Source: Candidatus Hydrothermarchaeaceae archaeon
GTDB lineage: Archaea > Hydrothermarchaeota > Hydrothermarchaeia > Hydrothermarchaeales > Hydrothermarchaeaceae
DNA: 40,015 nt
Assembly: GCA_036446855.1 (NCBI GenBank)
Contig: JAZFTU010000153.1
Span: 1 to 40,015, forward strand
Direction: 5' to 3'
Part shown: in pieces, positions 10,448 through 30,347 of the stretch
Layout: each line of letters starts with the position of its first letter
Numbering within the stretch: position 1 is the stretch's first letter
Notes under the pieces: model-generated
Seen by the model: only the letters and a program-made list of their open reading frames with translations
Told to the model about the DNA's origin: nothing
Databases searched by the model: none
Made by a program: the position numbers and the translations under genes

Positions 10448-12427
10448 ATGATTTATTATGAAGGTATGGCGATGAAGGAAGAGCCCAGAGTAGGCGTGTA
10501 CATATGTCACTGCGGCATCAATATTGCTGGTGTCATAGATGTTGAAGAGGTGGCTAAATATGCTAAAACTCTAAAAGGAGTAGCGTTAGTAAGAGCGGAT
10601 AAATACATGTGCTCTGACCCCGGGCAAGATGCGGTGAAAAAAGATATTTTAGAGCACAAGTTAAACCGAATAGTTGTCGCAGCCTGTTCTCCCCGTATGC
10701 ACGAGCCTACCTTCAGGAATGCATGTCAGGATGCAGGCCTTAATCCCTATTTATTTGACATGGCAAATATCAGAGAGCATGCCTCATGGGTGCATATGAA
10801 TGAACCTCAAAGGGCTACAGAGAAGGCAAAAGAACTCGTCAGGATGTCAGTTGCAAAGGCCAGGCTGCTTGAGCCCCTAAAAAACCCTAAAGTCAGTGTC
10901 TTAAAAAAGGCACTTATCATAGGCGGCGGGATTGCAGGAATTCAGGCGAGCCTTGACCTTGCAGACCAGGGTTTTAAGGTTTACCTTGTAGAGAAGAGGC
11001 CAAGTCTTGGTGGGGTTATGGCACAGCTTGACAAGACATTTCCCACAATGGATTGCTCGGCATGCATCTTAACTCCAAAGATGGTGGACGTTTCAAGACA
11101 CCCGAACATTGAGCTTCTGACATATTCTGAGGTAAAGAAGGTTGATGGTTACATAGGAAATTTCCAGGTGAAAGTGGAAAAAAAGGCCAGGTTTGTAAAT
11201 GCAGACACGTGCACAGGTTGTGGAGCATGCGTCCCTGCATGCCCTGTCGAGGTGCCAAGCGAATTCGACCTTGGACTGGGCATGAGAAAGGCGATATACG
11301 TCCCTTTCCCTCAAGCAGTGCCTTTAGTTTATACCATAGATGACCAAAATTGCGTGGGCTGCAGAATGTGTGACAACACTTGCGATAAGGATGCCATTGA
11401 ATTCGAACAAAAATCAAAAACTGTGACGCTTAATGTTGGAACGATAATTTTAGCAACTGGCTTTAAGGTCTTCGATGCCAAAAGAAAGGAAGAATATGGA
11501 TATGGGACCCATGCCAACGTGATTACCGGACTTGAATTTGAAAGACTCATAAACGCCTCTGGGCCAACCGGGGGAAAGCTTCTAAGGCCATCAGATGGTA
11601 AAGAACCCAGCAGCATTGGCTTTGTGCAGTGCGTTGGGTCTAGGGATGCTACCGTCGGAAATCCTTACTGCTCCAGAGTCTGCTGCATGTATGCAATAAA
11701 AAATGCGAGGCTTTACAAAGAAAAGCACCCAGATGCGGATATTTACATATTTTATATAGATATAAGGGCCTTTGGAAAAGGCTATGAGGAATTCTACCAG
11801 ACGGCACAGGAGGAGTATGGAGTAAAGTTCATACGGGGAAGGCCCGGTAAAATTGAAGAAGACCAAAAAACAGGAAATCTACTTGTTAAGGTGGAAGACT
11901 CGCTTATTGGAAAAAACCTTGAGTTAGAACTTGACCTAGTGGTGTTATCGGTTGGAATGGAGCCTTCGGAAGATTCTGATAAGCTTCAAAAGCTTTTGAG
12001 AATTAGTAAAAGTGCTGATGGGTTTTTCATGGAGGCACATCCAAAACTTAGGCCAGTCGATACGCTAACTGATGGACTATTCCTTGCTGGAACCGTGCAA
12101 GGCCCAAAAGATATTCCTGACACTGTGGTGCAGGGTAGCGCGGCAGCATCAAGGGCGGCCATCCCTATGGCCAAAGGTGAAGTAGAAGTAGAGCCAATAG
12201 TCGCAACTGTAGAAATCGACAGCTGCATAGGCTGCAGGATATGCGAGAGGATTTGCGACTTCGGTGCAATAGAGGTCATAGATAGAAAGGCAAAGGTAAA
12301 TGAGGTCCTTTGCAAGGGCTGTGGTGGATGTGCAGGCGGATGTCCTACGGGCTCCGTTCAGATAAGTCACTTCAATGACAAACAGATTATGGCAATGATA
12401 AGTGCCGCATTTCAAGAGGAAAAATGA
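10448..12427 (+). CDS. hdrA: Heterodisulfide reductase subunit A (FAD plus Fe-S flavoprotein)
   Basis: [17 protein letters not shown] fold [16 protein letters not shown], ferredoxin motifs [34 protein letters not shown] and [12 protein letters not shown], and CSRVCCMYA. The true start is possibly Met 7 or Met 9 (10466 or 10472). Confidence 0.93.
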
Positions 12428-12834
12428 CATTCGAACCAAAGATTCTGGGTTTTCTATGCAACTGGTGCGCCTATGCAGGTGCCGATATGGCAGGGACGAG
12501 CAGAATGCAATACCCCCCAAATATAAGGATTATCAGAGTCATGTGTACTGCAAGAATAGACCCTACTTTTATCCTAAAAGCGTTCTCTCTAGGAGCAGAT
12601 GGAGTATTAGTAGGGGGTTGTCATCTGGGGGATTGTCATTACGTTTCAGGAAATTACAGGGCCCAAAGCAGGGTAAGGCTTGTGCATGAGATACTGGAAG
12701 AATTGGGACTTGAAAAAGACAGGCTTAAACTTAAGTGGATATCTGCCTCAGAGGGCGAGAGATTTGCCAATACTATAAAGGATTTTACAAGCACCGTAAG
12801 AAAGATTGGGCCAAGCCCACTTAGGGGTTCCTAG
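12424..12834 (+). CDS. mvhD: MvhD-type iron-sulfur subunit (F420-non-reducing hydrogenase delta subunit family)
   Basis: [18 protein letters not shown]...[11 protein letters not shown]...[21 protein letters not shown] overlap with the hdrA stop. Confidence 0.9.
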
Positions 12835-12999
12835 AGTTCTTTAAATATTTTTCGTGTAGAGCAGGTACAAACCAGCCTTTCGTTCGTATTATCCTCCGCT
12901 TGAGAAAGTCTTCATCCGACCCTCTATCCCATTTCAATTTCTGCAGTCCTCCCATGAAATATAATATTGGCATTTAAGATATATAAATATTTCTATTCA

Positions 13000-13353
13000 C
13001 TACTGTGGCACTACGACTGCGAAGGCAACTGCCGTCTTCTTGCTGTGGGATAAACTGAGTTTTACACGGTATGAAGTCATGTCTTTATCGAGAAAATTAA
13101 CAAGGGGGAGACCTGATTTTTCGTTTAATATTTCAATTTGGTTAATATATACTTTTTCACCGGAACCATTAATGGCTTTTATAAGAGCTTCTTTCCCAGC
13201 GAACCTCACAGCAAAATGCCTCGCAGGTTTTGCTTTACTCATGCAGTAATTTATTTCTTTATCTGTAAAAATTTTTCTCATTAAGTTTTTATTGTTTGTT
13301 ATGCCGTCAAATCTTGAGATATCCTCACAATCTACACCTACTGAAAGGTCCAT
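13000..13353 (-). CDS. acpS: Holo-ACP synthase (AcpS-type 4'-phosphopantetheinyl transferase)
   Basis: 117 aa. Motifs GVDCEDISRF, FTDKEINYC, RFAGKEALIKA, EILNEKSGLP and LSLSHSKKTAVAFAVV are colinear with bacterial AcpS. Confidence 0.85.
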   Translation of the reverse strand: MDLSVGVDCEDISRFDGITNNKNLMRKIFTDKEINYCMSKAKPARHFAVRFAGKEALIKAINGSGEKVYINQIEILNEKSGLPLVNFLDKDMTSYRVKLSLSHSKKTAVAFAVVVPQ

Positions 13354-13375
13354 GAAATCAAATCCCTGCTACTTT

Positions 13376-14170
13376 CTATCTTATAATCGCCCTCGGCGGA
13401 TGATACCCTCCAGGGACAGTTGCGTTTGGGATGACAATAGACTTTCTTCCCATAAGGACGCCAGGGCTTGTGACCGAATTGCATCCGGTTTCTACAGAGT
13501 CGCCGAGGATGGCACCAAATTTCCTAAGCCCGGTTTTGTATATCTTCCCGTCTATCTTTAAGGCAATTTCAGAGCCAATTATTTTAAGATTTGCAAGTTT
13601 TGTCCCTGCGCCAAGATTGACATCACTACCTAGAATACTGTCACCTATATAGGCGAAGTGACCTGCTGTTACGCGGTTTATCATGACTGCGTTTTTCATC
13701 TCGGTGGCATGCCCCACAATACAACGGTCTCCGAGGAGGCACGAGCCCCGGATATATGCACCCTGTCGAACCTCGGTATTTCTGCCAATGATTGTCGGGC
13801 CCTTAATGAGCACCCCGGGCTCTACAACGCTTCCCTCGCCAATATAGATACGGTCATCGAAAATGGATGTGCCAGCAAATAATACTGAGGCCCCATCAAG
13901 CACTTTCCCATCCAAACTAACAGAAAATTCGCCTTTTGCAGGGCTGCCTAATTTAAGCTCAAATCCATCTGTGATAACCTCTCCTTTGAAAATCACCACG
14001 GTCTTTTGGAGCATGTCCCCCTTTTTTCGTATCTCGGCAACGTTTGGATTTATATTTTCATCGATATAGCTTCCAATATTTTTTAAAGTGTCCCAAACCA
14101 AACTTGCCCTATTAAAAAACGCTTTATGCTCAAATGTCTCCAGGTCAAAAAAATCGGGTGGTGCAAGCAT
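13376..14170 (-). CDS. Left-handed beta-helix (hexapeptide-repeat) acyl/acetyltransferase, GlmU C-terminal-like, with a unique ~100-aa N-terminal region
   Basis: Hexapeptide periodicity runs from IYIGEGSVVEPGVLIKGPTIIGRNTEV onward. HFAYIGDSILGSDVNLGAGTKLANL resembles the GlmU acetyltransferase core. No nucleotidyltransferase domain is present. Confidence 0.8.
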   Translation of the reverse strand: MLAPPDFFDLETFEHKAFFNRASLVWDTLKNIGSYIDENINPNVAEIRKKGDMLQKTVVIFKGEVITDGFELKLGSPAKGEFSVSLDGKVLDGASVLFAGTSIFDDRIYIGEGSVVEPGVLIKGPTIIGRNTEVRQGAYIRGSCLLGDRCIVGHATEMKNAVMINRVTAGHFAYIGDSILGSDVNLGAGTKLANLKIIGSEIALKIDGKIYKTGLRKFGAILGDSVETGCNSVTSPGVLMGRKSIVIPNATVPGGYHPPRAIIR

Positions 14171-14181
14171 TTTTTTTTAAC

Positions 14182-15927
14182 CTATTTTTCCAGTGTTGAA
14201 GTATCGCCCTCGGGAAGGCCAAGCTCTCTGGCCTTTAAAAGTCGTCTCATGATCTTTCCGCTTCGTGTCTTTGGGAGGGTATCTAAAAACTCGATTTCTC
14301 TTGGATATGCGGCACTTGAAAGTCTCTTTTTTACAAATTTTTGGATTTCATGCTTTAGTTCGTCTGATTGATTAAATCCTTCCTTTAGTGAAATAAAGGC
14401 CTTTATCACCTCCATTGCGATGGGGTCTGGCTTTCCGATGACTCCGGCCTCTGCTACGGCCGGATGCTCTATTAATGCGCTCTCAACCTCGAAGGGGCCG
14501 ACCAGGTGCCCTGCAGTATTTATCACATCGTCAGCACGGCCAACAAACCAGAAATATCCATCGTCGTCCATTTTTGCCTTATCTCCCGTAATATACCAAC
14601 CATTCTGAAAACGTGAATCATACATCTCCTCTTTGTCCCAGTAAGTCCGAAACATTGAGGGCCAACCGGGTTTTATTGCCAGGTGCCCCTCTTTTCCAGA
14701 TGGCAGCTCGTTATAGTTGTCATCTAAGATTGCCGGATGAATACCCGGAAATGGACGGCCCATGGACCCCGGCTTTACGTCCTGTACAGGATAGTTCGCA
14801 ATCAATATGCAGCCCGTCTCGGTCTGCCACCAATTATCATGAAATGGGAGCCCCATTATCTTTTTTCCCCAAACCACGGCCTCCGGGTTGAGTGGCTCAC
14901 CTACGCTGCACGGATGCCTAACACTGCTCAGGTCAAATTTCTTTGGGAGATCGTCTCCAAACCTCATGAGCATTCGTATGGCAGTTGGTGCGGTGTACCA
15001 GACCGTAACTTTGTACTTTTCTATTATTGAATACCATTTTTTTGGATTGAAATCTCCATCATAAATGACCTGTGTTACGCCATTGGACCAGGGGCCAAAA
15101 ATCCCATAGGACGTACCGGTGACCCATCCGGGGTCTGCGGTACACCAGTATATGTCTTCTGAAGTTAGGTCCAAAACGTATTTGGAAGTTGCATAGTGCC
15201 CAATTACTGCCGCATGGGCGTGGACAACCCCTTTAGGCTTTCCGGTAGTACCTGAGGTATAATGCATGATGGAGTAGTCTTCCCTTGAAGTCTTGACTAT
15301 TTCAAAATCATCCGGGGCCTTTTTCATTTCTTCCTCGTAACTTACCTCGTTATCCCCACGCTCAATTTTTTCCCCGCCCCTGTTTACGAGGATAATCCTT
15401 TCCAAATCTGGAAGGTCTTCAAATATTTCCTTAACTTTATTTTTTAGCTTTGGACTTGTTATAAAGACCTTTGCCTTGCTGTCGAGTAGTCTATCTTTTA
15501 CGGCATCAGGACCGAAGGCAGAAAAAAGTGGGCCTATTATTGCTCCTGTCTTAAGTGTTCCAAGAACACTGATATAAAGCTCCGGCACCTTCTCTAAAAA
15601 TACGAAAACACGGTCGCCTTTTTCAACGCCCAGATTTTTTAAGACATTGGCAAATCTATTGCTTGATTTTGACAGCTGTAAAAATGAATACGTTTCCTGG
15701 GCGCCTCCTCTTCCTTCCCAGAAGAAGGCTACCTTGTCCCTCCGATGGGTTTTCAAATGCCTGTCTACCACCTCATATGCAATATTAAGTTTTCCATCCC
15801 CCAGAAAGTCAAGCTCCTTTTCGATATCCCCCCATTTAAAGTCCCTGCACGCATTTTTGTAATCATCCATGTTGGGAATCTGTTTCATCGATTTACAATC
15901 TGGTTTTTTTATTGTTTCAAAGTTCAT
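14182..15927 (-). CDS. AMP-forming acyl ligase of the acetyl-CoA synthetase (ANL) family
   Basis: YTSGTTGKPKGV, YWCTADPGWVTGTSY, NWWQTETG, YITGDKAKMDDDGYFWFVGRADDVIN and LPKTRSGKIMRR. 581 aa. Confidence 0.9.
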   Translation of the reverse strand: MNFETIKKPDCKSMKQIPNMDDYKNACRDFKWGDIEKELDFLGDGKLNIAYEVVDRHLKTHRRDKVAFFWEGRGGAQETYSFLQLSKSSNRFANVLKNLGVEKGDRVFVFLEKVPELYISVLGTLKTGAIIGPLFSAFGPDAVKDRLLDSKAKVFITSPKLKNKVKEIFEDLPDLERIILVNRGGEKIERGDNEVSYEEEMKKAPDDFEIVKTSREDYSIMHYTSGTTGKPKGVVHAHAAVIGHYATSKYVLDLTSEDIYWCTADPGWVTGTSYGIFGPWSNGVTQVIYDGDFNPKKWYSIIEKYKVTVWYTAPTAIRMLMRFGDDLPKKFDLSSVRHPCSVGEPLNPEAVVWGKKIMGLPFHDNWWQTETGCILIANYPVQDVKPGSMGRPFPGIHPAILDDNYNELPSGKEGHLAIKPGWPSMFRTYWDKEEMYDSRFQNGWYITGDKAKMDDDGYFWFVGRADDVINTAGHLVGPFEVESALIEHPAVAEAGVIGKPDPIAMEVIKAFISLKEGFNQSDELKHEIQKFVKKRLSSAAYPREIEFLDTLPKTRSGKIMRRLLKARELGLPEGDTSTLEK

Positions 15928-15943
15928 ATGAAATCGCTCTAAT

Positions 15944-16183
15944 CTAAGGAGAGGTCATCTTCCTTTTTATCAAACTTACCAGATCGCCAACGGTCTCTAC
16001 TTCCATGGTTTCTTCATCGCCTAAATCTATCCCAAATTCCTCCTCTACCGCAGAATATATGGTAAACTTGTTTAATGAATCGGCATCGAGGTCATCGCCA
16101 AGACTTGCAGATTCCGAAACTTCGGACTTTGCGACGGCAAGCTCCTTTACTATTATTGCCTTGACTTTTTCAAAGACGGCCAT
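15944..16183 (-). CDS. Acyl carrier protein
   Basis: 79 aa. VKAIIVKELAVAKSEVSESASLGDDLDADSLNKFTIYSAVEEEFGI is colinear with bacterial AcpP and includes the DSL phosphopantetheine-attachment serine. GGGAGTGAG lies upstream of the ATG. Confidence 0.85.
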   Translation of the reverse strand: MAVFEKVKAIIVKELAVAKSEVSESASLGDDLDADSLNKFTIYSAVEEEFGIDLGDEETMEVETVGDLVSLIKRKMTSP

Positions 16184-16258
16184 GCTCTCACTCCCTTACA
16201 ACAGGTTGTATACCTTATCAGAATATAAGTACTTTAAGGACTCTCAATTCGTTTAAGC

Positions 16259-16951
16259 CTATAATAAGTACTCAAACAATCTTTTGTTGGATAGTAAGTG
16301 TTCTATTGCTTCCCTGCCACCTTTTCCCAAACTGGCTTTTGTAATGTGGTCACTTACGTCTCTTAATCCTTCTTCCGAAATAGATATTGAGTATCCGGCC
16401 ATTTGTAGCATTTCACGGTCACCTTCGCTGTCGCCTATTGCAGCTATCTCGCTTGCATCGATTTTCAGCATTTTTGCTGCCTTTAAAATCCCTTCACCCT
16501 TGTTTACGGTTGAGTCCTTTATATGGATTGCATATTTTGTATCGACAACGCTTACGTCGAATTTTGCTAGTATCCCCTTGACTTCTTCTACAGGAACGTC
16601 CCTGTATATCGCTATCTCAGTCACTCTCCGCTCAGAGCCCAAAATCTTTCGTACATTGAGAGTTTTATTAAGTGCATCAAAGGCACTATTCGCCTTTACT
16701 ATGTCGCCTGAGCAGAGAATCTCCCCCGTTTTAGGATATGTAACAATCCCGCCGTTTTCTGCAATTAATGGACCGCTTGTGCCTATGAAAAATGAAGCGG
16801 CCTCGGTAATGCACAGGACGTTTCCCGTTGCCAAAATTACAGGAATGTCCCTTTTCTCCAGCTCCCTAACCTTCTCAACTGCCCCCAGGTCCAGCTTCCT
16901 GTCAGCGTCAGTAAGTGTTCCATCTATGTCTATTGCAACTGCCTTTATCAT
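16259..16951 (-). CDS. HAD-IIB phosphatase (archaeal phosphoglycolate phosphatase-like)
   Basis: MIKAVAIDIDGTLTD (DxDGT motif), ATGN, and IGDSEGDREM (motif IV). I chose the start at the internal Met. The longer track ORF (to 17029) would overlap the divergent gene. Confidence 0.75.
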   Translation of the reverse strand: MIKAVAIDIDGTLTDADRKLDLGAVEKVRELEKRDIPVILATGNVLCITEAASFFIGTSGPLIAENGGIVTYPKTGEILCSGDIVKANSAFDALNKTLNVRKILGSERRVTEIAIYRDVPVEEVKGILAKFDVSVVDTKYAIHIKDSTVNKGEGILKAAKMLKIDASEIAAIGDSEGDREMLQMAGYSISISEEGLRDVSDHITKASLGKGGREAIEHLLSNKRLFEYLL

Positions 16952-17002
16952 ATATAAGAATTTCAAAACCCTTTTATAATTGTTGTTACGTATACTGGCT
17001 TT

Positions 17003-18349
17003 ATGGAAGGGATGGACTGTTCTAACCACGCTCAGGATATAAGGAAAATTGAAGAGGCGGTCCGCGGGAAATATGTGGACATTTTTGTCTCAGATAAAGA
17101 AAGCATCCTGAGGATTAAGGACGAAATAAAAAAACTTGTGGACGTAAGTGAAGATGCTATTGATTGTTATATCTATGAAAAGCTCAGCATTGGGAAACTG
17201 ACCCCCTTTTTGATGGACGACAATCTGGAGGAGGTTATGGTTATAGGGGGAAAACTTCCAATATATGTATACGACAGAAGTTCTGGAATGAAAGACTCGG
17301 GAGTTGTACTGGAAACTGAGGAAATAAAAGATGTGATAAAAAAAATAGCAAGGTACTCGGGTAGAATCGTGGATAGTTCTAATCCGCTTTTAGACGGCCG
17401 TCTTCCGGATGGAAGCAGGGCAAACGCAACATTTCCCGAGGTAACTCCAAGAGGGCCTACTTTAACCATCAGAAAGTTTGACCAAGAGTCCCTTAGCGTC
17501 GCCGACCTTATAAAACATGAGACCATGACCCCCACAGTTGCTGCATTTTTTTGGCTTGTTGTAGAGGGACTTGGGACTAAACCTGCAAATATACTAATCC
17601 TGGGGGGTACTGCAAGCGGCAAGACAACCACCCTAAATGCATTATCTTACTTCATACCTGCAAAGGAGAGGATTATCTCAATTGAAGACATCCTCGAAAT
17701 AAAAATAAAACATGACCACTGGATACCCATGGAGACCAAGCCCTCGGACCCAGGCAAGGATAATGAGGTTCGCATGGACGACCTCTTAAAAAATGCCCTG
17801 AGGATGCGCCCGGACAGGATTTTGGTAGGCGAGGTGCGGGCAAAGGAGGCCTTAACTCTATTTACTGCGATGAACACGGGTCACGACGGCTGCATGGCGA
17901 CGATTCATGCCAACTCTGCAAAGGAGGCCATAATAAGGCTCCAGACCCCCCCGATGAATATTCCGGAGGTTATGATTCCTGCCCTTGACCTGGTAATTGC
18001 CCAGCACAGGCAAATAGAGGAGGGTAGACTTGTGAGGCGAATATTTGAGGTAGCAGAGATAGGCGGGCGGGAAGGGGACACCATCCTTACAAATACACTT
18101 TTCAAATTTGACCCTTCAAAAAAACAGCTTGAAGTAAACCTGTTAAACGGGAGAATCATCCAGGAACTTTCTACACTTGCAAATCTCACAATAAAAGAGA
18201 TAGATGCCGAAATTGAAAAAAGAGAGGCCATTTTAGATACCATGGCAAAAAACAATGCAGAGAAAGATACAGTGCGTGAAGTAATTGACCTTTACTACAA
18301 GAACCCAGAGGATGCCATAGACTTTCTCTATGAGAAGGTTAAAGGCTAG
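17003..18349 (+). CDS. Type II/IV secretion-system family ATPase (VirB11/FlaI/PilB-like, COG0630-type)
   Basis: Walker A GGTASGKTTTLNAL, Asp box SIEDILE, Walker B-like RPDRILVGEVR, His box GHDGCMATIHANS. A TATA-like TTTTATAA lies about 25-30 nt upstream of the ATG. Confidence 0.85.
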   Translation: MEGMDCSNHAQDIRKIEEAVRGKYVDIFVSDKESILRIKDEIKKLVDVSEDAIDCYIYEKLSIGKLTPFLMDDNLEEVMVIGGKLPIYVYDRSSGMKDSGVVLETEEIKDVIKKIARYSGRIVDSSNPLLDGRLPDGSRANATFPEVTPRGPTLTIRKFDQESLSVADLIKHETMTPTVAAFFWLVVEGLGTKPANILILGGTASGKTTTLNALSYFIPAKERIISIEDILEIKIKHDHWIPMETKPSDPGKDNEVRMDDLLKNALRMRPDRILVGEVRAKEALTLFTAMNTGHDGCMATIHANSAKEAIIRLQTPPMNIPEVMIPALDLVIAQHRQIEEGRLVRRIFEVAEIGGREGDTILTNTLFKFDPSKKQLEVNLLNGRIIQELSTLANLTIKEIDAEIEKREAILDTMAKNNAEKDTVREVIDLYYKNPEDAIDFLYEKVKG

Positions 18350-18846
18350 TCAATCTTTATAACAATCTCTTTTTTAGTCACAGGCACCAGTTTTTTTAAT
18401 TCTAATTTCGTATCATCTTCCAATGTGAATTTATTAATTGAGGTATCCGGCGGTTTTCCGTTTATCTCGAAGATATAATAGCCCTCCTCGCCATCGACAG
18501 ACGTTACAAACTCTTTATCCCCAATGTTTTCTACCTTTACCCCAGAAATTTCCTTGAGCACATCAAGAACGCTCGTCCCCCTCTTTATATTTACATCAAA
18601 CACCTGCCCCAAAAAATCCAGGGAGTTGTATATTCTATCGGTTTTTGCCCTTATTACGTGTGTTCTCCCAAATTTTTGTCGTTCGACAAGGCCTGCTTTC
18701 TCTAATATATTAACGTGCCTTGCTGCGACCGGTACGGAGATTTTGACGTCCTTTGCAAGGCCTGTTATGTGCTTCTCTTCTCTTATTAGAGATTTTAGCA
18801 TCTCTCGTCTAGTCTTGCATCCCAATGCCTTAAACATATTACCCAT
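18346..18846 (-). CDS. ArsR-family HTH regulator fused to a C-terminal beta-grasp-like domain (DUF4430-like by pattern)
   Basis: wHTH: ALGCKTRREMLKSLIREEKHITGLAKDVKISVPVAARHVNILEKAGLVERQKFGRTHVI. There is no ELCVCDL-type metal-site cysteines. C-terminal ~90 aa: GTSVLDVLKEISGVKVENIGDKEFVTSVDGEEGYYIFEINGKPPDTSINKFTLEDDTKLEL. Confidence 0.8.
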   Translation of the reverse strand: MGNMFKALGCKTRREMLKSLIREEKHITGLAKDVKISVPVAARHVNILEKAGLVERQKFGRTHVIRAKTDRIYNSLDFLGQVFDVNIKRGTSVLDVLKEISGVKVENIGDKEFVTSVDGEEGYYIFEINGKPPDTSINKFTLEDDTKLELKKLVPVTKKEIVIKID

Positions 18847-18854
18847 TAGGGTAA
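18839..18854. promoter_or_regulatory. Perfect palindrome TTACCC-ATTA-GGGTAA spanning the ArsR-fusion start codon
   Basis: Read directly: ttaccc (18839-18844), atta, gggtaa (18849-18854). It sits between a TATA-like TTTAAATATTT (minus-strand reading) and the ATG at 18846. It is related to the palindrome at 20125-20142. Confidence 0.35.
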
Positions 18855-18863
18855 CATAAATAT

Positions 18864-19541
18864 TTAAAAGTAGCGGTAGAAATAACCCTGAGAAAATCCT
18901 ATCTCCACAATTATTGCGACGCCCAAAAGGATGCCAAAAATTCCTGCAAGAGTTCTGATTTTCATGTTAAGATTCTCAAAATTCTCTGTAGCAGCCAGGG
19001 GGAGCCCAATTGCAGTGCTTATAAGTAGCATTCCAAGAAGAGATCCTAATCCGAAGATTAGGATATAAAAAATGCCCTGTGTCACGGTATCCATAGTGGA
19101 CAGAACAATGAGCAAGAGTGCACCGCTTCCAGCAAGTCCGTGAATCATACCAACAACAAATGACTTGTGCACGTGACCGTGTGAATTTTGTGGGTTATGG
19201 GAATGGAGATGGCGGTGTTTAGCTCCGCTGTGTGTATGGCGATGCATATGAATCTTAGATAGTACTGAAAATCCTAAAAGTACCAAAACAACACCAATAA
19301 AAAGCTCCATGGAGAGGACAATTTTTTTAGGGATGGATATCTTAAAAATAAGCAGGAGCAAACCAACAAATAGTAGGGTTATTGCATGTCCCAATCCCCA
19401 AAAGACGCCAAGGAGGGAAGATTTACTAAAGTCCCTGTTTTCACTGACTATTGCAGACACGGCCACTACATGGTCTGCATCCAGGGCATGCTTAAGTCCC
19501 AGCATAAAACCTAAAAACAGTATGGTCCAACCTGCTTCCAT
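18864..19541 (-). CDS. NicO/NiCoT-type nickel/cobalt permease with a His-rich loop
   Basis: LGLKHALDADHVVAV (HxxDADH signature), His-rich loop HMHRHTHSGAKHRHLHSHNPQNSHGHVH, and six or more hydrophobic helices. The track ORF begins at a TTG (19592). ATG 19541 (MEAGWTILF) fits the TATA at 19571-19578. Confidence 0.8.
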   Translation of the reverse strand: MEAGWTILFLGFMLGLKHALDADHVVAVSAIVSENRDFSKSSLLGVFWGLGHAITLLFVGLLLLIFKISIPKKIVLSMELFIGVVLVLLGFSVLSKIHMHRHTHSGAKHRHLHSHNPQNSHGHVHKSFVVGMIHGLAGSGALLLIVLSTMDTVTQGIFYILIFGLGSLLGMLLISTAIGLPLAATENFENLNMKIRTLAGIFGILLGVAIIVEIGFSQGYFYRYF

Positions 19542-19562
19542 GGTAATACTTTTTTGAAAATA

Positions 19563-19588
19563 GTAACACCATAAATACTTTATGTTAC
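19563..19588. promoter_or_regulatory. Inverted repeat GTAACA-N14-TGTTAC bracketing the TATA-like box of the Ni/Co permease gene (candidate NikR-type operator)
   Basis: gtaaca (19563-19568) and tgttac (19583-19588). The spacer contains ATAAATAC (19571-19578), about 33 nt upstream of ATG 19541. Confidence 0.3.
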
Positions 19589-19663
19589 CCAAGGCTTTAC
19601 ACTTTAATTCTATTTTGCACTTTTATTCACTCAAAATCAATAGTTTAGATGCAAAGCTGTTAC

Positions 19664-20080
19664 CTAAAGTCCCTTCCCGGTAGAAGTCATTACCAATTTT
19701 CCATGTTTTACACCGCTTGAGGCAATCAAAGTATCTGCCAGGCTTCTCGTCTCATTTGCCTTTCCCCTGATTACAAGTACTTCAATGCAATTGTGCTCGT
19801 CGAGATGTACGTGCATGCTGGAAAGCACGTTCGCATGATGTGAATGTTGCAGTTCAATTAGCCGGTTTGAAACTCCCCTGGTATCATGGTCGTAAAGAAG
19901 GGTTAAAGAGCCTACAGAATCATCCTCTTCCCCCTCCCACTCCTGCTGTACAATAAAGTTTCTAATAACGTCTCGAATACCCTCAGACCTGCTTTTATAA
20001 CCCTTTTCCTTAAGGATTTTGTCGAATCGCATCAATAATTTAGGGGAGATTGTTGAGCTGAATCTTACTACTTTTTCCAT
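19664..20080 (-). CDS. nikR: Nickel-responsive regulator NikR (ribbon-helix-helix plus C-terminal metal-binding domain)
   Basis: RHH region: VVRFSSTISPKLLMRFDKILKEKGYKSRSEGIRDVIRNFI. C-terminal His/Cys metal-site region: HSHHANVLSSMHVHLDEHNCIEVLVIRG. The track start at 20092 is TTG. ATG 20080 lies 26 nt from TATA TATTTAAA (20103-20110), which is consistent with a leaderless mRNA. Confidence 0.9.
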   Translation of the reverse strand: MEKVVRFSSTISPKLLMRFDKILKEKGYKSRSEGIRDVIRNFIVQQEWEGEEDDSVGSLTLLYDHDTRGVSNRLIELQHSHHANVLSSMHVHLDEHNCIEVLVIRGKANETRSLADTLIASSGVKHGKLVMTSTGKGL

Positions 20081-20124
20081 ATTTTTATTCAAGGGGTATT
20101 ACTATTTAAATTTTTTTTAATACC

Positions 20125-20445: not shown

Positions 20446-20844
20446 ATGAAAACTGGTATTGTAATAGTAGGTCATGGAAGCCGGGTCCCGGAAAGCAGGG
20501 GCATTTATGAGGAAATAGCCGGGAAGGTGGGGACAAAGTCAGGCCTGGATGTTCGGGTCGGCTATATGAAGCACTGGCATCCCACTCTTGTAGAAACCAT
20601 AAGCGCCATGATAGAGGAAGGGATAAAAAAGATTGGCATCGTTCCGGTGTTCCTTCTTCCAGGTATGCACGTCATAGAGGACATACCTATCCTCCTGGGC
20701 ATCAAGAAAGGAAAAATTCCAGAGTTTGGTTATGAGAAAATCGATATCCCCGAAGACGTCGAAATTTTTTACGGCAGACACATTGGCGCAGATGACAAAC
20801 TTGCGGAAGTTGTTCTCGACCGCGTAAATGAGGTATTAAAATGA
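20446..20844 (+). CDS. cbiX: Small class II chelatase CbiX(S)/CfbA (sirohydrochlorin cobalto- or nickelo-chelatase)
   Basis: 132 aa. IVIVGHGSR and VPVFLLPGMHV carry the catalytic His residues of small CbiX. Confidence 0.9.
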   Translation: MKTGIVIVGHGSRVPESRGIYEEIAGKVGTKSGLDVRVGYMKHWHPTLVETISAMIEEGIKKIGIVPVFLLPGMHVIEDIPILLGIKKGKIPEFGYEKIDIPEDVEIFYGRHIGADDKLAEVVLDRVNEVLK

Positions 20845-21425
20845 ATGCAAAAGAAATCGAGGAGGAAAGCTTCAAAATAATAGAGGAGCAGATGAATTGC
20901 ACCTCCCCGGAAAAGGCAGTCATAAGAAGGATAATCCATGCCACCGCAGATTTCACCTATGCCGATAGGACCGTGTTCAAAAATGACGCCATTCGAAGGG
21001 GTATTGATGCAATAAAATCCAAAAATCCAATCATCACCGATGTCTCCATGGTCAAAGCAGGCATATCCAGGTATGATGGGGAGGTGAAATGCCTCATCAA
21101 CGAAAAAGAGGTTCACAAGCTTGCCGAAAATTCAAATGGTACACGGGCGGCCTCTGCATTTCACGTATTTAAGGGTGACCTAGAAAACGCTATTGTAGCG
21201 ATAGGTAATGCCCCATCTGCATTATTTGAACTTTGCGCTCTTATAGACGAAGGGATAAGACCATCTCTAATCGTTGCTGCACCGGTGGGATTTGTAGGCG
21301 CAAAGGAATCAAAGGAGAAAAGTTTAACGTACGATGTCCCATGCATTGCGGTGAGGGGGGAGAAGGGCGGAAGCAGCATTGCCGTTGCCATAATAAATGC
21401 CCTTATACTGTTATCCGAGGAGTAA
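20841..21425 (+). CDS. cbiC: Cobalt-precorrin-8 methylmutase
   Basis: RIIHATADF and AIGNAPSALFEL. ATGA overlap with cbiX. Confidence 0.9.
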   Translation: MNAKEIEEESFKIIEEQMNCTSPEKAVIRRIIHATADFTYADRTVFKNDAIRRGIDAIKSKNPIITDVSMVKAGISRYDGEVKCLINEKEVHKLAENSNGTRAASAFHVFKGDLENAIVAIGNAPSALFELCALIDEGIRPSLIVAAPVGFVGAKESKEKSLTYDVPCIAVRGEKGGSSIAVAIINALILLSEE

Positions 21426-21427
21426 GA

Positions 21428-22534
21428 ATGGAAAATTGCATACAAAAAAATGGAAAGATTCTGAGGCGAGGCTACACAACAGGTACATGTGCTGCTGCTG
21501 CTGCGAAAGCTGCCGTTAGCGCGCTCTTTTTTAAGGATATAGACGATGTCGAAATCACTTTGCCTGCCCAAGAAAAGGTCACCCTGAAGGTCGCAAATCG
21601 CAAGCTTGCAAAAGGTATGGCAAGGTGCTGCATAATAAAAGATGCCGGAGACGACCCGGACGTTACTCACAAAGCACAAGTATGCGCCTCGGCAAGAAAG
21701 ATAAAAGAAGGAGTAGAACTTAAGGGCGGAAGCGGCATCGGAATTGCAACAAAACCCGGCCTTCGGATAGGGGTTGGAGAACCTGCGATAAACCCTGTGC
21801 CAAGGAAGATGATTATACAAGGAATCCGGGAGGTTCTGCCAGATGGCAGGGGCGTGGAAGTCACTATCCATGTTCCTGAAGGAAAAGAACTTGCTAAGCG
21901 CACGATGAACGAGAAGCTGGGCATTGTGGGAGGAATTTCCATTTTAGGCACCACAGGCATTGTGGAGCCCAAATCCGAGAAAGCGTTCATGGACTCACTT
22001 GTACCGCAGATAGATATCGCTCTGGCAAAGGGCCATTTCGAAGTAGTTTTAACCCCGGGCAGGATTGGAGAGAAGAACGCGATGGCCAGAGGTATCCCTG
22101 AGGATGCGATTGTCCAGTCAGGTAATTTCATAGGGTTCATGCTTGAAAAGTGCGCTAGTAAGGGGGTGAAAAAAGTCCTGCTCTTCGGGCACCTGAGCAA
22201 AATTACCAAGGTTGCAGCAGGTTTCTTTGACACGCACAGTAAAGTTGCGGACTTTAGACTTGAAACCATAGCAACCCACGCCTCGTCGTCAGGTGCTTCC
22301 AAAAATGTTTTGGAGAGCATCATGAGCGCAAACACTGCAGAGCATGCGATGGAAATCTTAAGAGAAAACAAATTGCTAAAAGTCTTTGATTCCATCGCAA
22401 AAGAGGCAGGGATGAGGGCCAAAGGATACGTTGAAAACGGGATGGAGATAAGTGTGGCACTGATGTCACTCAATGGGGAGCCGGTGGGGAGATATAACCT
22501 GAAGGCGTGCAGATGGGGAAAATCTTTGTCGTAG
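21428..22534 (+). CDS. cbiD: Cobalt-precorrin-5B (C1)-methyltransferase
   Basis: The start was chosen at MENCIQKNGKILRRGYTTGTCAAAAAKAA, the CbiD N-terminal signature, 2 nt after the cbiC stop. The track ORF start at 21233 lies inside cbiC. Confidence 0.9.
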   Translation: MENCIQKNGKILRRGYTTGTCAAAAAKAAVSALFFKDIDDVEITLPAQEKVTLKVANRKLAKGMARCCIIKDAGDDPDVTHKAQVCASARKIKEGVELKGGSGIGIATKPGLRIGVGEPAINPVPRKMIIQGIREVLPDGRGVEVTIHVPEGKELAKRTMNEKLGIVGGISILGTTGIVEPKSEKAFMDSLVPQIDIALAKGHFEVVLTPGRIGEKNAMARGIPEDAIVQSGNFIGFMLEKCASKGVKKVLLFGHLSKITKVAAGFFDTHSKVADFRLETIATHASSSGASKNVLESIMSANTAEHAMEILRENKLLKVFDSIAKEAGMRAKGYVENGMEISVALMSLNGEPVGRYNLKACRWGKSLS

Positions 22535-23700
22535 GAGTGGGACCAGGTTCTGGGGAGTTTATGACCCCGGCTGCAAAAAGCGCAGTGGACGATGCAGATA
22601 TGCTACTTGGCGGCAAGGGCGCCCTATCCATGTTCCCAACTAAAAAACCAAAAAGGGCCATTGGCGCAGATATGGACGAAGCCATGGAGTTTATTAGAAC
22701 TAACCGGAACTACAATATTGCAGTTCTGACTTCAGGAGACCCGGGTTTTTACAGCATTCTGGATTTGCTCTTAAAAACTTTTCCAAAAAACGATATCGAA
22801 GTCATTCCCGGAATAAGCTCAATGCAGCTTTGCTTTGCGAGGATAAGGGAGGTCTGGCACGATGCAGAGTTTGTCAGCGTGCATGGAAGGAGCATAAATT
22901 CCCTATCTCCTATAATATCCTGGTCTAAAAAGCTCGTGATTTTGACCGACCATATCTCACCCCCAAATATGGTTGCAGATTTTCTCCTGAAGAAGAGGAT
23001 ACGCGGCAGAGCCCGGGTATGCGACAGCCTTTCCAAACCATCGGAAACGGTCACCGAATCCTCGCTAGAGGAGATTTCTCGCCAGAGATTCTCGGGAAAC
23101 TGCATTTTCGTCTTTCAGCCCGATGCACAGGCAACTCAAAAGAGGTGGGGTTACAGGACATCCGGTATTCCTGACGAACTGTTCGAAAAGGAAAGTTCTC
23201 CTATGACCAAAGAAGAGATAAGGGTGATTACTCTTTCAAAAGCGAGGATTGCAGATGACAGCATAATTTATGACATAGGGGCAGGAACCGGATCGATTTC
23301 CATAGAGGCCGGTCTACTTGCCAGCAAAGGGCAGGTTTTCTCTATTGAAAAACTCCCAGAGAGGGTGAGCATTATCAAAAGAAATATCCGAAATTTCGGG
23401 GTTCTCAACGTAGAGGTCGTAACAGGTGAGGCGCCAGAAGCTTTAGAAAACCTGCCAGAGGCAGACAGGATAATCATAGGCGGGAGCAGCGGGAGGATAA
23501 GGGAAATCCTGCAAAAATGCAGGGAAAAGCTGAGAGAGGGGGGGATAATCGTGATAAACGCGGTTACTAAAAATACCCTGGAGGTAGCAACTCTCGCTTT
23601 AAAAGAGCTTGAGCTTGGTTATGAGGTGATACAGGTCAGAATAAACCGTAAAGGGGAAACGAAATTAAATCCGATTTCTGTTATTTATACAAGGAGGTAA
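22513..23700 (+). CDS. cbiET: Fused CbiE/CbiT: cobalt-precorrin-7 C5-methyltransferase plus cobalt-precorrin-6B C15-methyltransferase (decarboxylating)
   Basis: N-terminal half: IFVVGVGPGSGEFMTPAA...LTSGDPGFYS (tetrapyrrole methylase). C-terminal half: MTKEEIRVITLSKARIADDSIIYDIGAGTGSISIEA (CbiT SAM fold). Confidence 0.88.
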   Translation: MGKIFVVGVGPGSGEFMTPAAKSAVDDADMLLGGKGALSMFPTKKPKRAIGADMDEAMEFIRTNRNYNIAVLTSGDPGFYSILDLLLKTFPKNDIEVIPGISSMQLCFARIREVWHDAEFVSVHGRSINSLSPIISWSKKLVILTDHISPPNMVADFLLKKRIRGRARVCDSLSKPSETVTESSLEEISRQRFSGNCIFVFQPDAQATQKRWGYRTSGIPDELFEKESSPMTKEEIRVITLSKARIADDSIIYDIGAGTGSISIEAGLLASKGQVFSIEKLPERVSIIKRNIRNFGVLNVEVVTGEAPEALENLPEADRIIIGGSSGRIREILQKCREKLREGGIIVINAVTKNTLEVATLALKELELGYEVIQVRINRKGETKLNPISVIYTRR

Positions 23701-23704
23701 GTGA

Positions 23705-24763: not shown

Positions 24764-24774
24764 AGGAACTGGAT

Positions 24775-27232: not shown

Positions 27233-27233
27233 G

Positions 27234-29763: not shown

Positions 29764-29778
29764 AAAATAAACGAGGCG

Positions 29779-30108: not shown

Positions 30109-30264
30109 AATTATGACATAGAAGAAACATCGAAATAGTTATTTATACTTCTTGTTTCAATAGATGGCTCTAATGCACCTGAAGCAAGTAAAGTTCTGCT
30201 GGTTTGCGGGGGCAGGAGGGAAGCTTTGGATATTTAATTTTAAAAGAGTTAGTAATATGGGTTG

Positions 30265-30285
30265 TGAGGGGACTCCTGAGGGGAC
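30265..30285 (+). repeat. Tandem direct repeat TGAGGGGAC-TCC-TGAGGGGAC
   Basis: Read directly, two exact 9-mers with a 12-nt period, in the 239-nt gap that splits the cob cluster, 63 nt upstream of the receiver gene ATG. Confidence 0.6.
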
Positions 30286-30347
30286 AGGGTGCCTAACTAC
30301 ATACGTGGGTGGATAATTTTGGGGTTAGAAGGCTTTGAGGAGGAAAT

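What the first reader, a model, noticed from the sequence alone, without database searches (positions are those of the whole stretch)
13000..16183. Self-contained carrier-protein acylation cassette in an archaeon: ACP, AMP-forming ligase, LbH acyltransferase and AcpS
What the sequence shows. Four minus-strand genes are separated by only 16, 11 and 22 nt. A promoter-like AT-rich region and a GGGAGTGAG ribosome-binding site lie only before the first gene. The gene products are:
- a canonical ACP with the DSL serine;
- an ANL-family adenylating ligase;
- a GlmU-like hexapeptide-repeat acyltransferase lacking any nucleotidyltransferase domain;
- an AcpS-type phosphopantetheinyl transferase.

Established knowledge. 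Most archaea lack ACP, AcpS and type II fatty-acid synthesis. Ligase-plus-carrier pairs (the DltA/DltC and AasS logic) load acids onto phosphopantetheine. LbH enzymes such as LpxA and LpxD take acyl groups from acyl-ACP.

Inference. I see no ketosynthase, reductase, dehydratase, condensation or thioesterase gene. The cassette therefore looks like a minimal activate-tether-transfer module that acylates an unknown acceptor, such as an amino sugar, lipid head group or small molecule. It does not look like a synthase.

This is my best candidate for an undescribed system in the window.
Basis: partly seen in the sequence, partly recalled or inferred. Interest (0 to 1): 0.75.

Follow-up and report, generated by a model that had tools for sequence, protein, structure and literature searches.

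The report
Archaeal acetate, carrier-protein, amino-sugar acetylation operon
A rarely seen archaeal four-gene operon pairs an acyl carrier protein and its activating enzyme with an acetate-activating ligase and a GlmU-type acetyltransferase, so it most likely acetylates an amino-sugar phosphate rather than making lipids, and whether the carrier protein really carries the acetyl group is still untested.

Summary
Four tightly spaced minus-strand genes encode an AcpP-like ACP, an ANL ligase, a stand-alone hexapeptide-repeat (LbH) transferase and an AcpS. The contig comes from a Hydrothermarchaeaceae archaeon, and no FAS, PKS or NRPS gene lies in its 40 kb.

The tools sharpen the interpretation.
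- **Ligase:** it is a short AcsA-type acetyl-CoA synthetase, 56% identical to B. subtilis AcsA, with an intact acetate pocket.
- **LbH:** it is the acetyltransferase half of GlmU, with all seven recalled GlmU active-site residues invariant. Bacterial homologues often sit next to glmM and nagB. The acyl group is therefore probably acetyl and the acceptor probably glucosamine-1-phosphate.
- **Conservation:** the exact cassette recurs in at least five archaeal genomic contexts and one bacterial-looking contig, so the adjacency is not fortuitous.
- **Counter-evidence:** most LbH homologues and many ligase homologues lack ACP and AcpS. The cassette LbHs also carry no clade-specific residue.

Whether the ligase loads holo-ACP or simply makes acetyl-CoA stays open. 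I found no paper describing the cassette. I rate it a new variant of known activate-tether-transfer logic, of moderate interest.

The parts
16184..16258 (-). Upstream spacer with a putative archaeal promoter (AAAGTACTTATATTC, a TATA-like element about 50 nt before the ATG) and the Shine-Dalgarno site GGGAGTGAG
   Evidence: Sequence read. The spacer is 63% A+T and has the best anti-SD duplex of the four genes, -7.0 kcal/mol. Promoter function is inferred, not tested. The upstream phosphoglycolate-phosphatase gene (16259-17029) is absent from all related loci, so it is not part of the unit.
15944..16183 (-). Acyl carrier protein, 79 aa, AcpP-like, with the phosphopantetheine-attachment Ser in DADSL
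   Evidence: PF00550 at 34.9 bits and NF002150 at 72.1 bits (cut-off 66). The best solved relatives are bacterial type II FAS ACPs, 2ehs, 6lvt and 1x3o. Orthologues at 63-89% identity were found. The three looked up all lie in the same cassette. The next hit looked up (P0141, 51%) is a bacterial FabH-linked ACP.
14182..15927 (-). AMP-forming ligase, 581 aa, short AcsA-type acetyl-CoA synthetase homologue. The acetate pocket is intact. The A8 motif reads GHL instead of G(H/E)R.
   Evidence: NF003313 'acetate--CoA ligase' equivalog at 916 bits (cut-off 729). It scores 708 bits against B. subtilis AcsA, 9g79, and is 56% identical to it. WVTG, SVGEP and NWWQTETG correspond to S. enterica Acs V310/T311, V386 and W414. 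Leu replaces Se R526 in this protein and in all 120 best homologues.
13376..14170 (-). Stand-alone left-handed beta-helix acetyltransferase, 264 aa. It is a homologue of the GlmU/ST0452 glucosamine-1-phosphate N-acetyltransferase domain, preceded by a short helical arm.
   Evidence: TIGR03992 model positions 246-393 only. Best solved relatives are ST0452 (2ggo, 5z09) and then GlmU. The AlphaFold model has mean pLDDT 85.9, and its best fold matches are ST0452 and GlmU. Invariant R141, E157, K159, H171, Y174, N185 and N194 map onto E. coli GlmU R333, E349, K351, H363, Y366, N377 and N386. Bacterial homologues are followed by glmM in 18 loci and have nagB nearby in 10.
13000..13353 (-). AcpS-type 4'-phosphopantetheinyl transferase, 117 aa
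   Evidence: PF01648 at 62.3 bits and TIGR00556 at 75 bits (cut-off 45.35). Best solved relatives are bacterial AcpS, 3hyk and 1f80. The motifs GVDCEDI and RFAGKEALIKA are conserved in all cassette copies.
12835..12999 (.). Convergent intergenic region between AcpS and MvhD (65% A+T). It marks the presumed end of the transcription unit.
   Evidence: No terminator was tested.

Best explanation
The cassette is a self-sufficient acetyl-transfer module, and I propose four steps.
1. AcpS converts apo-ACP to holo-ACP using CoA. This is inferred from family membership.
2. The ligase activates acetate with ATP to acetyl-AMP. This is strongly inferred from equivalog-level similarity and an intact acetate pocket.
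3. The ligase passes the acetyl group to the phosphopantetheine thiol of the dedicated ACP encoded immediately upstream. This is inferred only from conserved synteny, and CoA may still be accepted.
4. The trimeric GlmU-type LbH enzyme transfers the acetyl group to the 2-amino group of glucosamine-1-phosphate, or a very similar amino-sugar phosphate, giving GlcNAc-1-P for UDP-GlcNAc and envelope glycan synthesis. The acceptor is inferred from active-site identity and from glmM/nagB neighbours of bacterial homologues. ACP as the donor is inferred.

The ligase-LbH pair appears to be the older bacterial core. ACP was added next and AcpS last, which made the module portable into archaea that otherwise lack ACP and AcpS.

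My estimates for the components are:
- acetate as the acid: about 0.85
- an amino-sugar phosphate as the acceptor: about 0.6
- the ligase loading the ACP: about 0.45
- the LbH drawing from acetyl-ACP: about 0.35
For: **Conserved unit**
- The order ACP-ligase-LbH-AcpS recurs with tight spacing or overlaps in the window and in L006 (Hydrothermarchaeota).
- It recurs in L001-3, L087 and L088 (the lineage of archaeon BMS3Abin16/BMS3Bbin16), and in L089 up to its contig end. There the cassette lies beside HerA and, in L003, L087 and L088, the L11-L1-L10 operon. The downstream genes differ in each locus.
- It also recurs in L092 (beside archaeal RPA), in L096 and L019 (beside RadB, S15P/S13e and TYW2), and in L091.
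- Flanks differ even from the closest relative. The only conserved candidate partners of the ACP are therefore the ligase, the LbH and AcpS.

**Stepwise assembly**
- In a neighbour-joining tree the ACP-linked ligases form one clade.
- L094 (PIG-L, ACP, ligase, LbH, but no AcpS) branches next.
- Ligase-LbH pairs without ACP, and then solitary ligases, branch outside.

**Acetate as the acid**
- NF003313 scores 916 bits against a cut-off of 729.
- The ligase is 56% identical to B. subtilis AcsA.
- All four acetate-pocket positions of S. enterica Acs are kept.

**Acceptor**
- Seven GlmU acetyltransferase active-site residues are invariant.
- Fold matches are ST0452 and GlmU.
- glmM (TIGR01455, 608 bits) lies immediately downstream in 16 of the 18 bacterial loci that carry it within four genes. 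nagB (TIGR00502) lies nearby in 10.
- The cassette LbHs branch next to the GlmM-linked clade.

**Background**
[quoted passage not shown] A module that needs holo-ACP would have to bring both.
- LbH enzymes that take acyl groups from acyl-ACP exist (LpxA, LpxD; established knowledge).
Against: - The ligase is by every sequence criterion an acetyl-CoA synthetase, and close homologues (67-69% identical) occur with no ACP nearby (L011, L017, L093, L095).
- No residue distinguishes the 8 cassette LbHs from 77 non-cassette homologues. This suggests the same donor as in bacterial homologues, most simply acetyl-CoA.
- An HMM built from the cassette ACPs finds no ACP within 7 kb of any other LbH locus.
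- L091 looks bacterial yet carries its own AcpS. The argument that AcpS was added because archaea lack it is therefore not clean.
- No amino-sugar gene (glmM, glmS, a uridylyltransferase) lies next to the archaeal cassettes.
- The trees are neighbour-joining trees on few sequences.
- No biochemical data exist.
Confidence: 0.4

Rival explanations
1. CoA route with a passenger carrier. The ligase is an ordinary acetyl-CoA synthetase. The LbH is an ordinary acetyl-CoA-dependent GlcN-1-P N-acetyltransferase, in effect a split GlmU. Together they channel scavenged acetate into UDP-GlcNAc synthesis. ACP and AcpS are co-transcribed but serve another client encoded elsewhere, or have a regulatory or accessory role.
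For: - The ligase passes the acetate--CoA ligase equivalog cut-off and resembles B. subtilis AcsA.
- Ligase-LbH pairs without ACP exist in Desulfobacteraceae (L011, L017).
- The LbH family mostly occurs without ACP.
- The cassette LbHs have no clade-specific residues.
- All GlmU active-site residues are kept.
Against: - ACP sits directly before the ligase, and AcpS directly after the LbH, in every archaeal copy despite unrelated flanks.
- No alternative ACP client is conserved nearby.
- ACP-linked ligases form one clade and share 19 substitutions, including two Lys at the mouth of the CoA site.
- The A8 Arg, whose mutation in M. thermautotrophicus Acs strongly impairs CoA use (PMC10455477), is Leu here. 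However, this is also true of the ACP-less relatives.
Confidence: 0.35
2. The ligase tethers some other acid (not acetate) to ACP, and the LbH acylates an unrelated acceptor such as a lipid head group or a small molecule.
For: - The ANL and LbH families are both functionally diverse.
- The A8 Arg-to-Leu change and the clade-specific substitutions show the ligase is not a textbook Acs.
- PIG-L and isochorismatase-family hydrolases recur near bacterial relatives.
Against: - The Trp that limits the Acs pocket to acetate, and the three other pocket residues, are conserved in the window ligase and in every ligase from the related loci. WVTG and WWQTETG are also kept in all 120 nearest homologues.
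- The LbH keeps the residues I recall as the two phosphate-binding residues and the catalytic His/Tyr/Asn set of GlmU.
- It is 55-59% identical to glmM-linked homologues.
Confidence: 0.12
3. A fragment of an imported bacterial fatty-acid, polyketide or lipid A locus. The remaining genes would lie elsewhere or have been lost.
For: - The ACP and AcpS are of the bacterial type II FAS kind.
- L092 has a FadD-like ligase and a thiolase within 9 kb.
Against: - No KS, KR, DH, ER, MCAT, C or TE domain occurs in the 40-kb window or in the flanks of the other archaeal cassettes.
- The cassette boundaries are the same four genes in all contexts.
- LpxA/LpxD models score far below cut-off (28-34 bits against 207-242).
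Confidence: 0.05

Closest known systems
GlmU C-terminal domain and Sulfolobus tokodaii ST0452 C-terminal domain (GlcN-1-P N-acetyltransferase, LbH fold)
   Same: - These are the best sequence and fold matches.
- Catalytic and substrate-binding residues (E. coli R333, E349, K351, H363, Y366, N377, N386) are invariant in the family.
- Bacterial homologues neighbour glmM and nagB.
   Different: - The window protein has no N-terminal sugar-1-phosphate nucleotidyltransferase domain, only a helical arm of about 55 residues followed by the beta-helix.
- It is encoded beside an ACP, so the acetyl donor may differ.
- Public annotation wrongly calls it 'glucose-1-phosphate thymidylyltransferase'.
Bacillus subtilis AcsA (short-form AMP-forming acetyl-CoA synthetase; PDB 9g79; PMC11910552)
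   Same: - 56% identity over the full length.
- Same length class, lacking the R191/R194 loop of long Acs.
- Same acetate pocket and the same catalytic Lys in PKTRSGK.
   Different: - The A8 motif reads GHL instead of GER.
- It is flanked by ACP and LbH genes rather than by the acuABC regulators.
DltA/DltC D-alanyl carrier system
   Same: An ANL adenylating enzyme is encoded next to a small dedicated phosphopantetheinyl carrier, onto which it loads a small acid for transfer to a cell-envelope acceptor (established knowledge).
   Different: - The acid is D-alanine, not acetate.
- Transfer is by the MBOAT DltB together with DltD, not by an LbH enzyme.
- No PPTase is encoded in the dlt operon.
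- There is no specific sequence relationship beyond the superfamilies.
LpxA/LpxD (acyl-ACP-dependent LbH acyltransferases of lipid A synthesis)
   Same: They are LbH trimers that take an acyl group from acyl-ACP and place it on a glucosamine-derived sugar. LpxD N-acylates the 2-amino group (established knowledge).
   Different: - They transfer long 3-hydroxyacyl chains to UDP-sugar acceptors.
- Similarity is weak: 25-34 bits against cut-offs of 207-242.
Acetate:SH-ACP ligases CitC and MadH (EC 6.2.1.22 and 6.2.1.35) and acyl-ACP synthetase AasS
   Same: Precedents for ATP-dependent acylation of a carrier-protein thiol with free acetate (CitC, MadH) or free fatty acid (AasS, an ANL enzyme). This rests on established knowledge.
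   Different: - CitC and MadH are not ANL enzymes. They act on a 2'-(5''-phosphoribosyl)-3'-dephospho-CoA prosthetic group, not on 4'-phosphopantetheine.
- AasS is FadD-like with a long-chain pocket.

Membership tests
Type II (AcpP-like) acyl carrier protein | PP-binding domain with the DSL serine, and a family HMM score above its cut-off | tested here: met
   PF00550 at 34.9 bits (cut-off 20.8) and NF002150 at 72.1 bits (cut-off 66). The DADSL motif is present in all copies. The strict equivalog TIGR00517 scores 65.0, below its 70.45 cut-off.
Type II (AcpP-like) acyl carrier protein | Actually phosphopantetheinylated, and serving FAS II enzymes | not testable with these tools
   No FAS II gene lies in the window. 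The rest of the genome was not available.
AcpS-type phosphopantetheinyl transferase | A single ACPS domain of about 120 aa with a family HMM score above its cut-off | tested here: met
   PF01648 at 62.3 bits (cut-off 25) and TIGR00556 at 75 bits (cut-off 45.35). The equivalog_domain TIGR00516 scores 57.7, just below its 59.8 cut-off. Best PDB hits are AcpS, 3hyk and 1f80.
AMP-forming acetate--CoA ligase (short AcsA type, NF003313) | Equivalog HMM score above the curated cut-off | tested here: met
   916.4 bits against a cut-off of 729.
AMP-forming acetate--CoA ligase (short AcsA type, NF003313) | Acetate-pocket residues (S. enterica V310, T311, V386, W414) and the catalytic A10 Lys | tested here: met
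   GWVTG, SVGEP, NWWQTETG and PKTRSGK are conserved.
AMP-forming acetate--CoA ligase (short AcsA type, NF003313) | The Arg residues important for CoA binding and the thioester step in Acs (Se R191, R526, R584; PMC10455477) | tested here: not met
   R191 lies in a loop that is absent here and also in B. subtilis AcsA. R526 is Leu (AcsA keeps Arg). R584 is Lys (as in AcsA).
AMP-forming acetate--CoA ligase (short AcsA type, NF003313) | CoA is the physiological thiol acceptor | not testable with these tools
   This needs enzyme assays with CoA against holo-ACP.
GlmU-type GlcN-1-P N-acetyltransferase domain | LbH fold with the GlmU active-site constellation | tested here: met
   Foldseek top hits are ST0452 and GlmU. 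R141, E157, K159, H171, Y174, N185 and N194 are invariant and align with GlmU R333, E349, K351, H363, Y366, N377 and N386 at an offset of 192. The GlmU residue roles come from my own knowledge of the GlmU structures.
Bifunctional GlmU (bacterial TIGR01173 or archaeal TIGR03992) | An N-terminal nucleotidyltransferase domain, and a whole-protein score above the cut-off | tested here: not met
   Only model positions 246-393 of TIGR03992 match (153.9 bits against a cut-off of 292.1). TIGR01173 scores 60.6 against 366.85.
Type II FAS, PKS or NRPS locus | Ketosynthase, reductase, dehydratase, malonyl transferase, condensation or thioesterase genes adjacent | tested here: not met
   None occurs among all window ORFs of at least 110 aa or in the flanks of L001, L087, L088 and L096.
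Carrier-protein 'activate-tether-transfer' module (DltA/DltC-like logic) | The ligase and the carrier are conserved as neighbours across lineages | tested here: met
   ACP lies directly upstream of the ligase in the window and in L001, L002, L003, L006, L019, L087, L088, L089, L091, L092, L094 and L096. ACP-linked ligases are monophyletic in a neighbour-joining tree.
Carrier-protein 'activate-tether-transfer' module (DltA/DltC-like logic) | The ligase loads the carrier, and the transferase unloads it | not testable with these tools
   No complex prediction or assay was available. The lack of cassette-specific residues in the LbH argues weakly against a specialised acyl-ACP site.

The most novel reading that the evidence does not exclude
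An Acs-type ANL enzyme acts as an acetate:holo-ACP ligase, and a GlmU-type LbH enzyme uses acetyl-ACP instead of acetyl-CoA to N-acetylate glucosamine-1-phosphate. Together they would form a CoA-independent acetyl-transfer route into cell-envelope precursors. The route would be packaged with its own ACP and AcpS, and would have moved between bacteria and archaea that otherwise have no ACP biology.
Probability: 0.3. Interest if true: 0.7.

Novelty: new variant of a known kind. Interest (0 to 1): 0.55.

Why it matters
ACP and AcpS are regarded as essentially absent from archaea, and that absence underpins the idea of ACP-independent archaeal fatty-acid synthesis. Here a conserved archaeal operon contains both, and it has no link to fatty-acid synthesis.

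If the ACP is the acetyl carrier, three things would follow:
- a new reaction for the acetyl-CoA synthetase family (acetate:ACP ligation);
- a new donor for GlmU-type acetyltransferases;
- a clean example of a pathway that carries its own cofactor-protein machinery across the domain boundary.

Even in the conservative reading, two points are useful for annotation and for reconstructing cell-envelope precursor synthesis in uncultured anaerobes:
- A large family has been mis-annotated as 'glucose-1-phosphate thymidylyltransferase'. It more likely consists of stand-alone GlcN-1-P acetyltransferases, in effect a split GlmU.
- A widespread Acs subclade has an Arg-to-Leu change in the A8 motif.

Tried and rejected
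- **Metagenome scan with the LbH protein.** Wider synteny had to come from exact-protein look-ups instead.
- **Lombard et al. 2012 (MBE, ACP in archaea).** The paper is not held. Only the review PMC3533463 could be read.
- **Literature searches for the cassette.** None found a description of this gene set. Searches for the GlmU and ST0452 residue papers found nothing, so those residue roles rest on my own knowledge. They are cross-checked only by their exact mapping onto invariant columns.
- **Bacterial donor of AcpS.** An exhaustive HMMER search gave 891 relatives at E of 1e-10 or better, with the best at 45-55% identity. None carries an organism name, so the donor is unresolved.
- **ACP homologue search.** The word index limited it to 25 candidates.
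- **Clade-specific residues in the cassette LbHs.** None were found.
- **Hidden ACP genes near bacterial LbH loci.** A custom HMM found none.
- **The upstream phosphoglycolate-phosphatase gene as a fifth member.** Rejected, because it is absent from every related locus.
- **Rfam, tRNA and tandem-repeat scans of the window.** Nothing was found.
- **Fortuitous adjacency.** Rejected because of conservation across unrelated flanks.
- **FAS, PKS or lipid A remnant.** Rejected for lack of any partner domain.

Full report
**1. What is in the sequence**

Four ORFs lie on the minus strand:
- ACP, 15944-16183, 79 aa
- ligase, 14182-15927, 581 aa
- LbH, 13376-14170, 264 aa
- AcpS, 13000-13353, 117 aa

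The gaps between them are 16, 11 and 22 nt. A 75-nt spacer (63% A+T) precedes the ACP gene. It holds a TATA-like element and GGGAGTGAG, which is the strongest anti-Shine-Dalgarno match of the four genes (-7.0 kcal/mol). AcpS has a moderate site (-5.7), and the other two have weak ones.

Downstream, the unit converges on mvhD. Upstream on the same strand lies an archaeal-type phosphoglycolate phosphatase (NF002245, 244 bits). That gene is absent from all related loci, so it is not part of the unit.

The contig belongs to 'MAG: Candidatus Hydrothermarchaeaceae archaeon'. The exact ACP is recorded from a contig of 40015 bp. The rest of the window is plainly archaeal: MCM, NMD3, an RPA-like OB protein, HdrA-MvhD, a nickel regulon and a long cbi cluster. 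No ketosynthase, reductase, dehydratase, condensation or thioesterase domain occurs in any window ORF of at least 110 aa.

**2. What the four proteins are**

*ACP.* It passes PF00550 and the NCBIfam subfamily model NF002150 (72.1 bits against a cut-off of 66). It falls just short of the AcpP equivalog TIGR00517. Its best solved relatives are bacterial type II FAS ACPs.

*AcpS.* It is a single-domain protein of the AcpS type (PF01648, TIGR00556).

*Ligase.* It is more specific than 'an ANL ligase'.
- It exceeds the curated cut-off of the equivalog NF003313 'acetate--CoA ligase' (916 bits against 729).
- Its best solved relative is B. subtilis AcsA (9g79; 708 bits, 56% identity).
- Aligned to S. 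enterica Acs, the four residues that shape the acetate pocket (V310, T311, V386, W414) are kept as GWVTG, SVGEP and NWWQTETG. So is the catalytic Lys of PKTRSGK.
- The acid is therefore almost certainly acetate.

One departure stands out. PMC10455477 describes three Arg residues as critical for CoA binding and the thioester step.
- R191 lies in a loop that is missing here, and is also missing in AcsA.
- R584 is Lys here, as in AcsA.
- R526 is Leu here (GHL), whereas AcsA has GER.

All 120 best database homologues (at least 67% identical) also read GHL. This defines a subclade, but it does not track the presence of ACP.

*LbH protein.* It matches the archaeal GlmU model only over its acetyltransferase half (TIGR03992 positions 246-393). 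Its best solved relatives are ST0452 of S. tokodaii and then GlmU. An AlphaFold model (mean pLDDT 85.9) shows a helical arm of about 55 residues followed by the beta-helix, and Foldseek returns ST0452 and GlmU first.

In a 58-sequence alignment, R141, E157, K159, H171, Y174, N185 and N194 are invariant. With the HMMER register (offset 192) they coincide with E. coli GlmU R333, E349, K351, H363, Y366, N377 and N386. From my own knowledge of the GlmU structures, these are the GlcN-1-P and catalytic residues. I could not retrieve the primary papers.

**3. How the genes are distributed**

*The LbH family.* It is very large (more than 7,000 hits, top hits all 260-290 aa) and overwhelmingly bacterial: Desulfobacterota, Nitrospirota, Actinomycetota, Clostridia and Planctomycetes. 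In 80 genome loci:
- only L006 (Hydrothermarchaeota) and L019 have all four genes;
- four have a complete ligase directly upstream, namely L006, L019, and L011 and L017 (Desulfobacteraceae);
- two more show its 3' end at a contig edge (L013, L015), and one has fragments (L024);
- the rest have no ligase, ACP or AcpS within 7 kb, apart from low-identity AcpS hits 3-6 kb downstream in L046 and L059.

Clustering of neighbours shows a phosphoglucosamine mutase gene within four genes downstream in 18 bacterial loci, immediately downstream in 16 of them. Glucosamine-6-phosphate deaminase lies nearby in 10. Both were confirmed against TIGR01455 (608 bits) and TIGR00502 (271 bits). That context, together with the active site, supports GlcN-1-P as the acceptor for the family.

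*The cassette.* Exact-protein look-ups found the complete cassette in these places:
- The lineage of archaeon BMS3Abin16/BMS3Bbin16 (L001-3, L087 and L088; L089 is cut within the LbH gene). There it sits beside HerA and, in L003, L087 and L088, the L11-L1-L10 operon. Downstream genes differ in each locus.
- L092, next to an archaeal RPA.
- L096, the same cassette type as L019, next to RadB, S15P/S13e and TYW2. It is therefore archaeal, despite the label of L019.
- L091, whose neighbours QueA and a bacterial-type Tgt suggest a bacterium.

L094 has PIG-L, ACP, ligase and LbH but no AcpS. L093 and L095 have the ligase without the LbH.

*Trees.* In a neighbour-joining tree of the ligases, the ACP-linked ones form one clade. 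L094 branches next, followed by the ACP-less ones. The cassette LbHs branch beside the GlmM-linked clade. The simplest history is ligase, then ligase plus LbH, then addition of ACP, then addition of AcpS, with transfer between domains. The trees are rough and the direction of transfer is unresolved.

**4. Mechanism**

The only partners conserved with the ACP across unrelated flanks are one adenylating ligase, one LbH transferase and AcpS. An ACP needs a loader and a consumer, and archaea normally have neither ACP nor AcpS (PMC3533463; bioRxiv 10.1101/2024.07.05.601840).

This favours the activate-tether-transfer reading: acetate goes to acetyl-AMP, then to acetyl-S-ACP, and then onto the amino group of GlcN-1-P.

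The following argue against it:
- The ligase is a textbook Acs by sequence.
- Ligase-LbH pairs work without a local ACP in Desulfobacteraceae, although bacteria have a housekeeping AcpP.
- Not one residue separates the 8 cassette LbHs from 77 others.
- No amino-sugar gene is adjacent in the archaeal loci.

The ACP-linked ligases do share 19 substitutions relative to four ACP-less ones. These include K162 and K164, at the place where long Acs carries its CoA-phosphate-binding loop. Because the clade is monophyletic, this may be phylogenetic signal only.

I therefore put the full ACP-dependent model at about 0.4. The 'ordinary acetyl-CoA route with a passenger ACP/AcpS' model stands at about 0.35, a non-acetate or non-amino-sugar version at about 0.12, and a FAS/PKS/lipid A remnant at about 0.05.

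**5. Comparison with known systems, and novelty**

In logic the cassette resembles DltA/DltC combined with LpxD. In membership its parts belong to AcpP-like ACPs, AcpS, short AcsA-type Acs (with one defining CoA-related Arg missing) and the GlmU acetyltransferase domain (without the nucleotidyltransferase half).

It is not a FAS, PKS, NRPS or Lpx locus. Acetate:carrier-thiol ligases are known (CitC, MadH), but they belong to another fold and act on another prosthetic group.

I found no paper describing this four-gene set. Public annotation names the parts separately and mislabels the LbH.

I rate it a new variant of a known kind, with interest 0.55. It is a clear and cheaply testable hypothesis about rare ACP biology in archaea, but there is no evidence yet that the chemistry differs from ordinary acetyl-CoA-dependent acetylation.

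Noticed in passing
window 14182-15927 (residues GHL, about 473-475) and proteins P0144-P0263: The A8-motif Arg of acetyl-CoA synthetases (S. enterica R526) is Leu in this ligase and in all 120 nearest homologues. These come mostly from Desulfobacterota and Nitrospirota, and the change holds whether or not an ACP gene is adjacent. B. subtilis AcsA keeps Arg. This looks like an uncharacterised Acs subclade.
   Followed up: partly
L021, L027, L031, L036, L038, L041, L042, L046, L048, L053, L056, L059, L061, L068, L069, L071, L080 (gene +1 or +2 after the LbH): In Actinomycetota, Clostridia and Planctomycetes MAGs the stand-alone LbH is directly followed by glmM, often with nagB nearby. This suggests a split GlmU, with the acetyltransferase encoded separately. 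Public records label the LbH 'glucose-1-phosphate thymidylyltransferase'.
   Followed up: partly
L004 8863-10244; L094 4505-5266; L017 4616-5161; L093 5430-5951: A PIG-L family deacetylase and an isochorismatase-family hydrolase recur immediately beside the ligase or LbH genes in bacterial loci. This hints at a wider deacetylation, acetate-recapture and re-acetylation neighbourhood.
   Followed up: no
L091 (JGI Ga0452210_000551) compared with L092 and L096: Closely related copies of the full cassette lie on a contig with QueA and a bacterial-type Tgt (L091), and on contigs with archaeal RPA, RadB, S15P/S13e and TYW2 (L092, L096). This implies inter-domain transfer. The domain of L091 was not verified beyond those two genes.
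   Followed up: partly
L004 7482-7991 and L024 940-1294: Short ORFs matching only pieces of the ligase sit directly upstream of the LbH. These are apparent decayed ligase genes in bacterial MAGs, or possibly assembly errors.
   Followed up: no
window 10448-12834: An HdrA-MvhD pair (heterodisulfide reductase A plus the methyl-viologen hydrogenase delta subunit) lies with no hydrogenase or HdrBC gene adjacent. It converges on the cassette.
   Followed up: no
window 20446-35922: A long, nearly uninterrupted anaerobic cobalamin biosynthesis and salvage cluster: CbiX, CbiC, CbiD, several TP_methylases, CobT-like DBI_PRT, CbiG, CbiJ, CobD-type aminotransferase, CobQ, CbiB, CbiZ-PgpA fusion, CobS and a MobA-like NTP transferase. 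The listed CbiD ORF (21233-22534) overlaps CbiC, and its domain starts at residue 77, so the true start is probably later.
   Followed up: no
window 18346-20092: A nickel-related group on the minus strand: NikR, a NicO/DsbD_2-type membrane transporter, and an ArsR-family regulator fused to DUF4430.
   Followed up: no
window 35-394 and 1314-1613: A basic 119-aa ORF with no Pfam hit lies at the contig start and might be a transposase or HTH fragment. A 99-aa protein with repeated CxxC motifs lies in an otherwise ORF-poor 1.6-kb stretch. Nothing was found there by Rfam, tRNA or tandem-repeat scans.
   Followed up: partly
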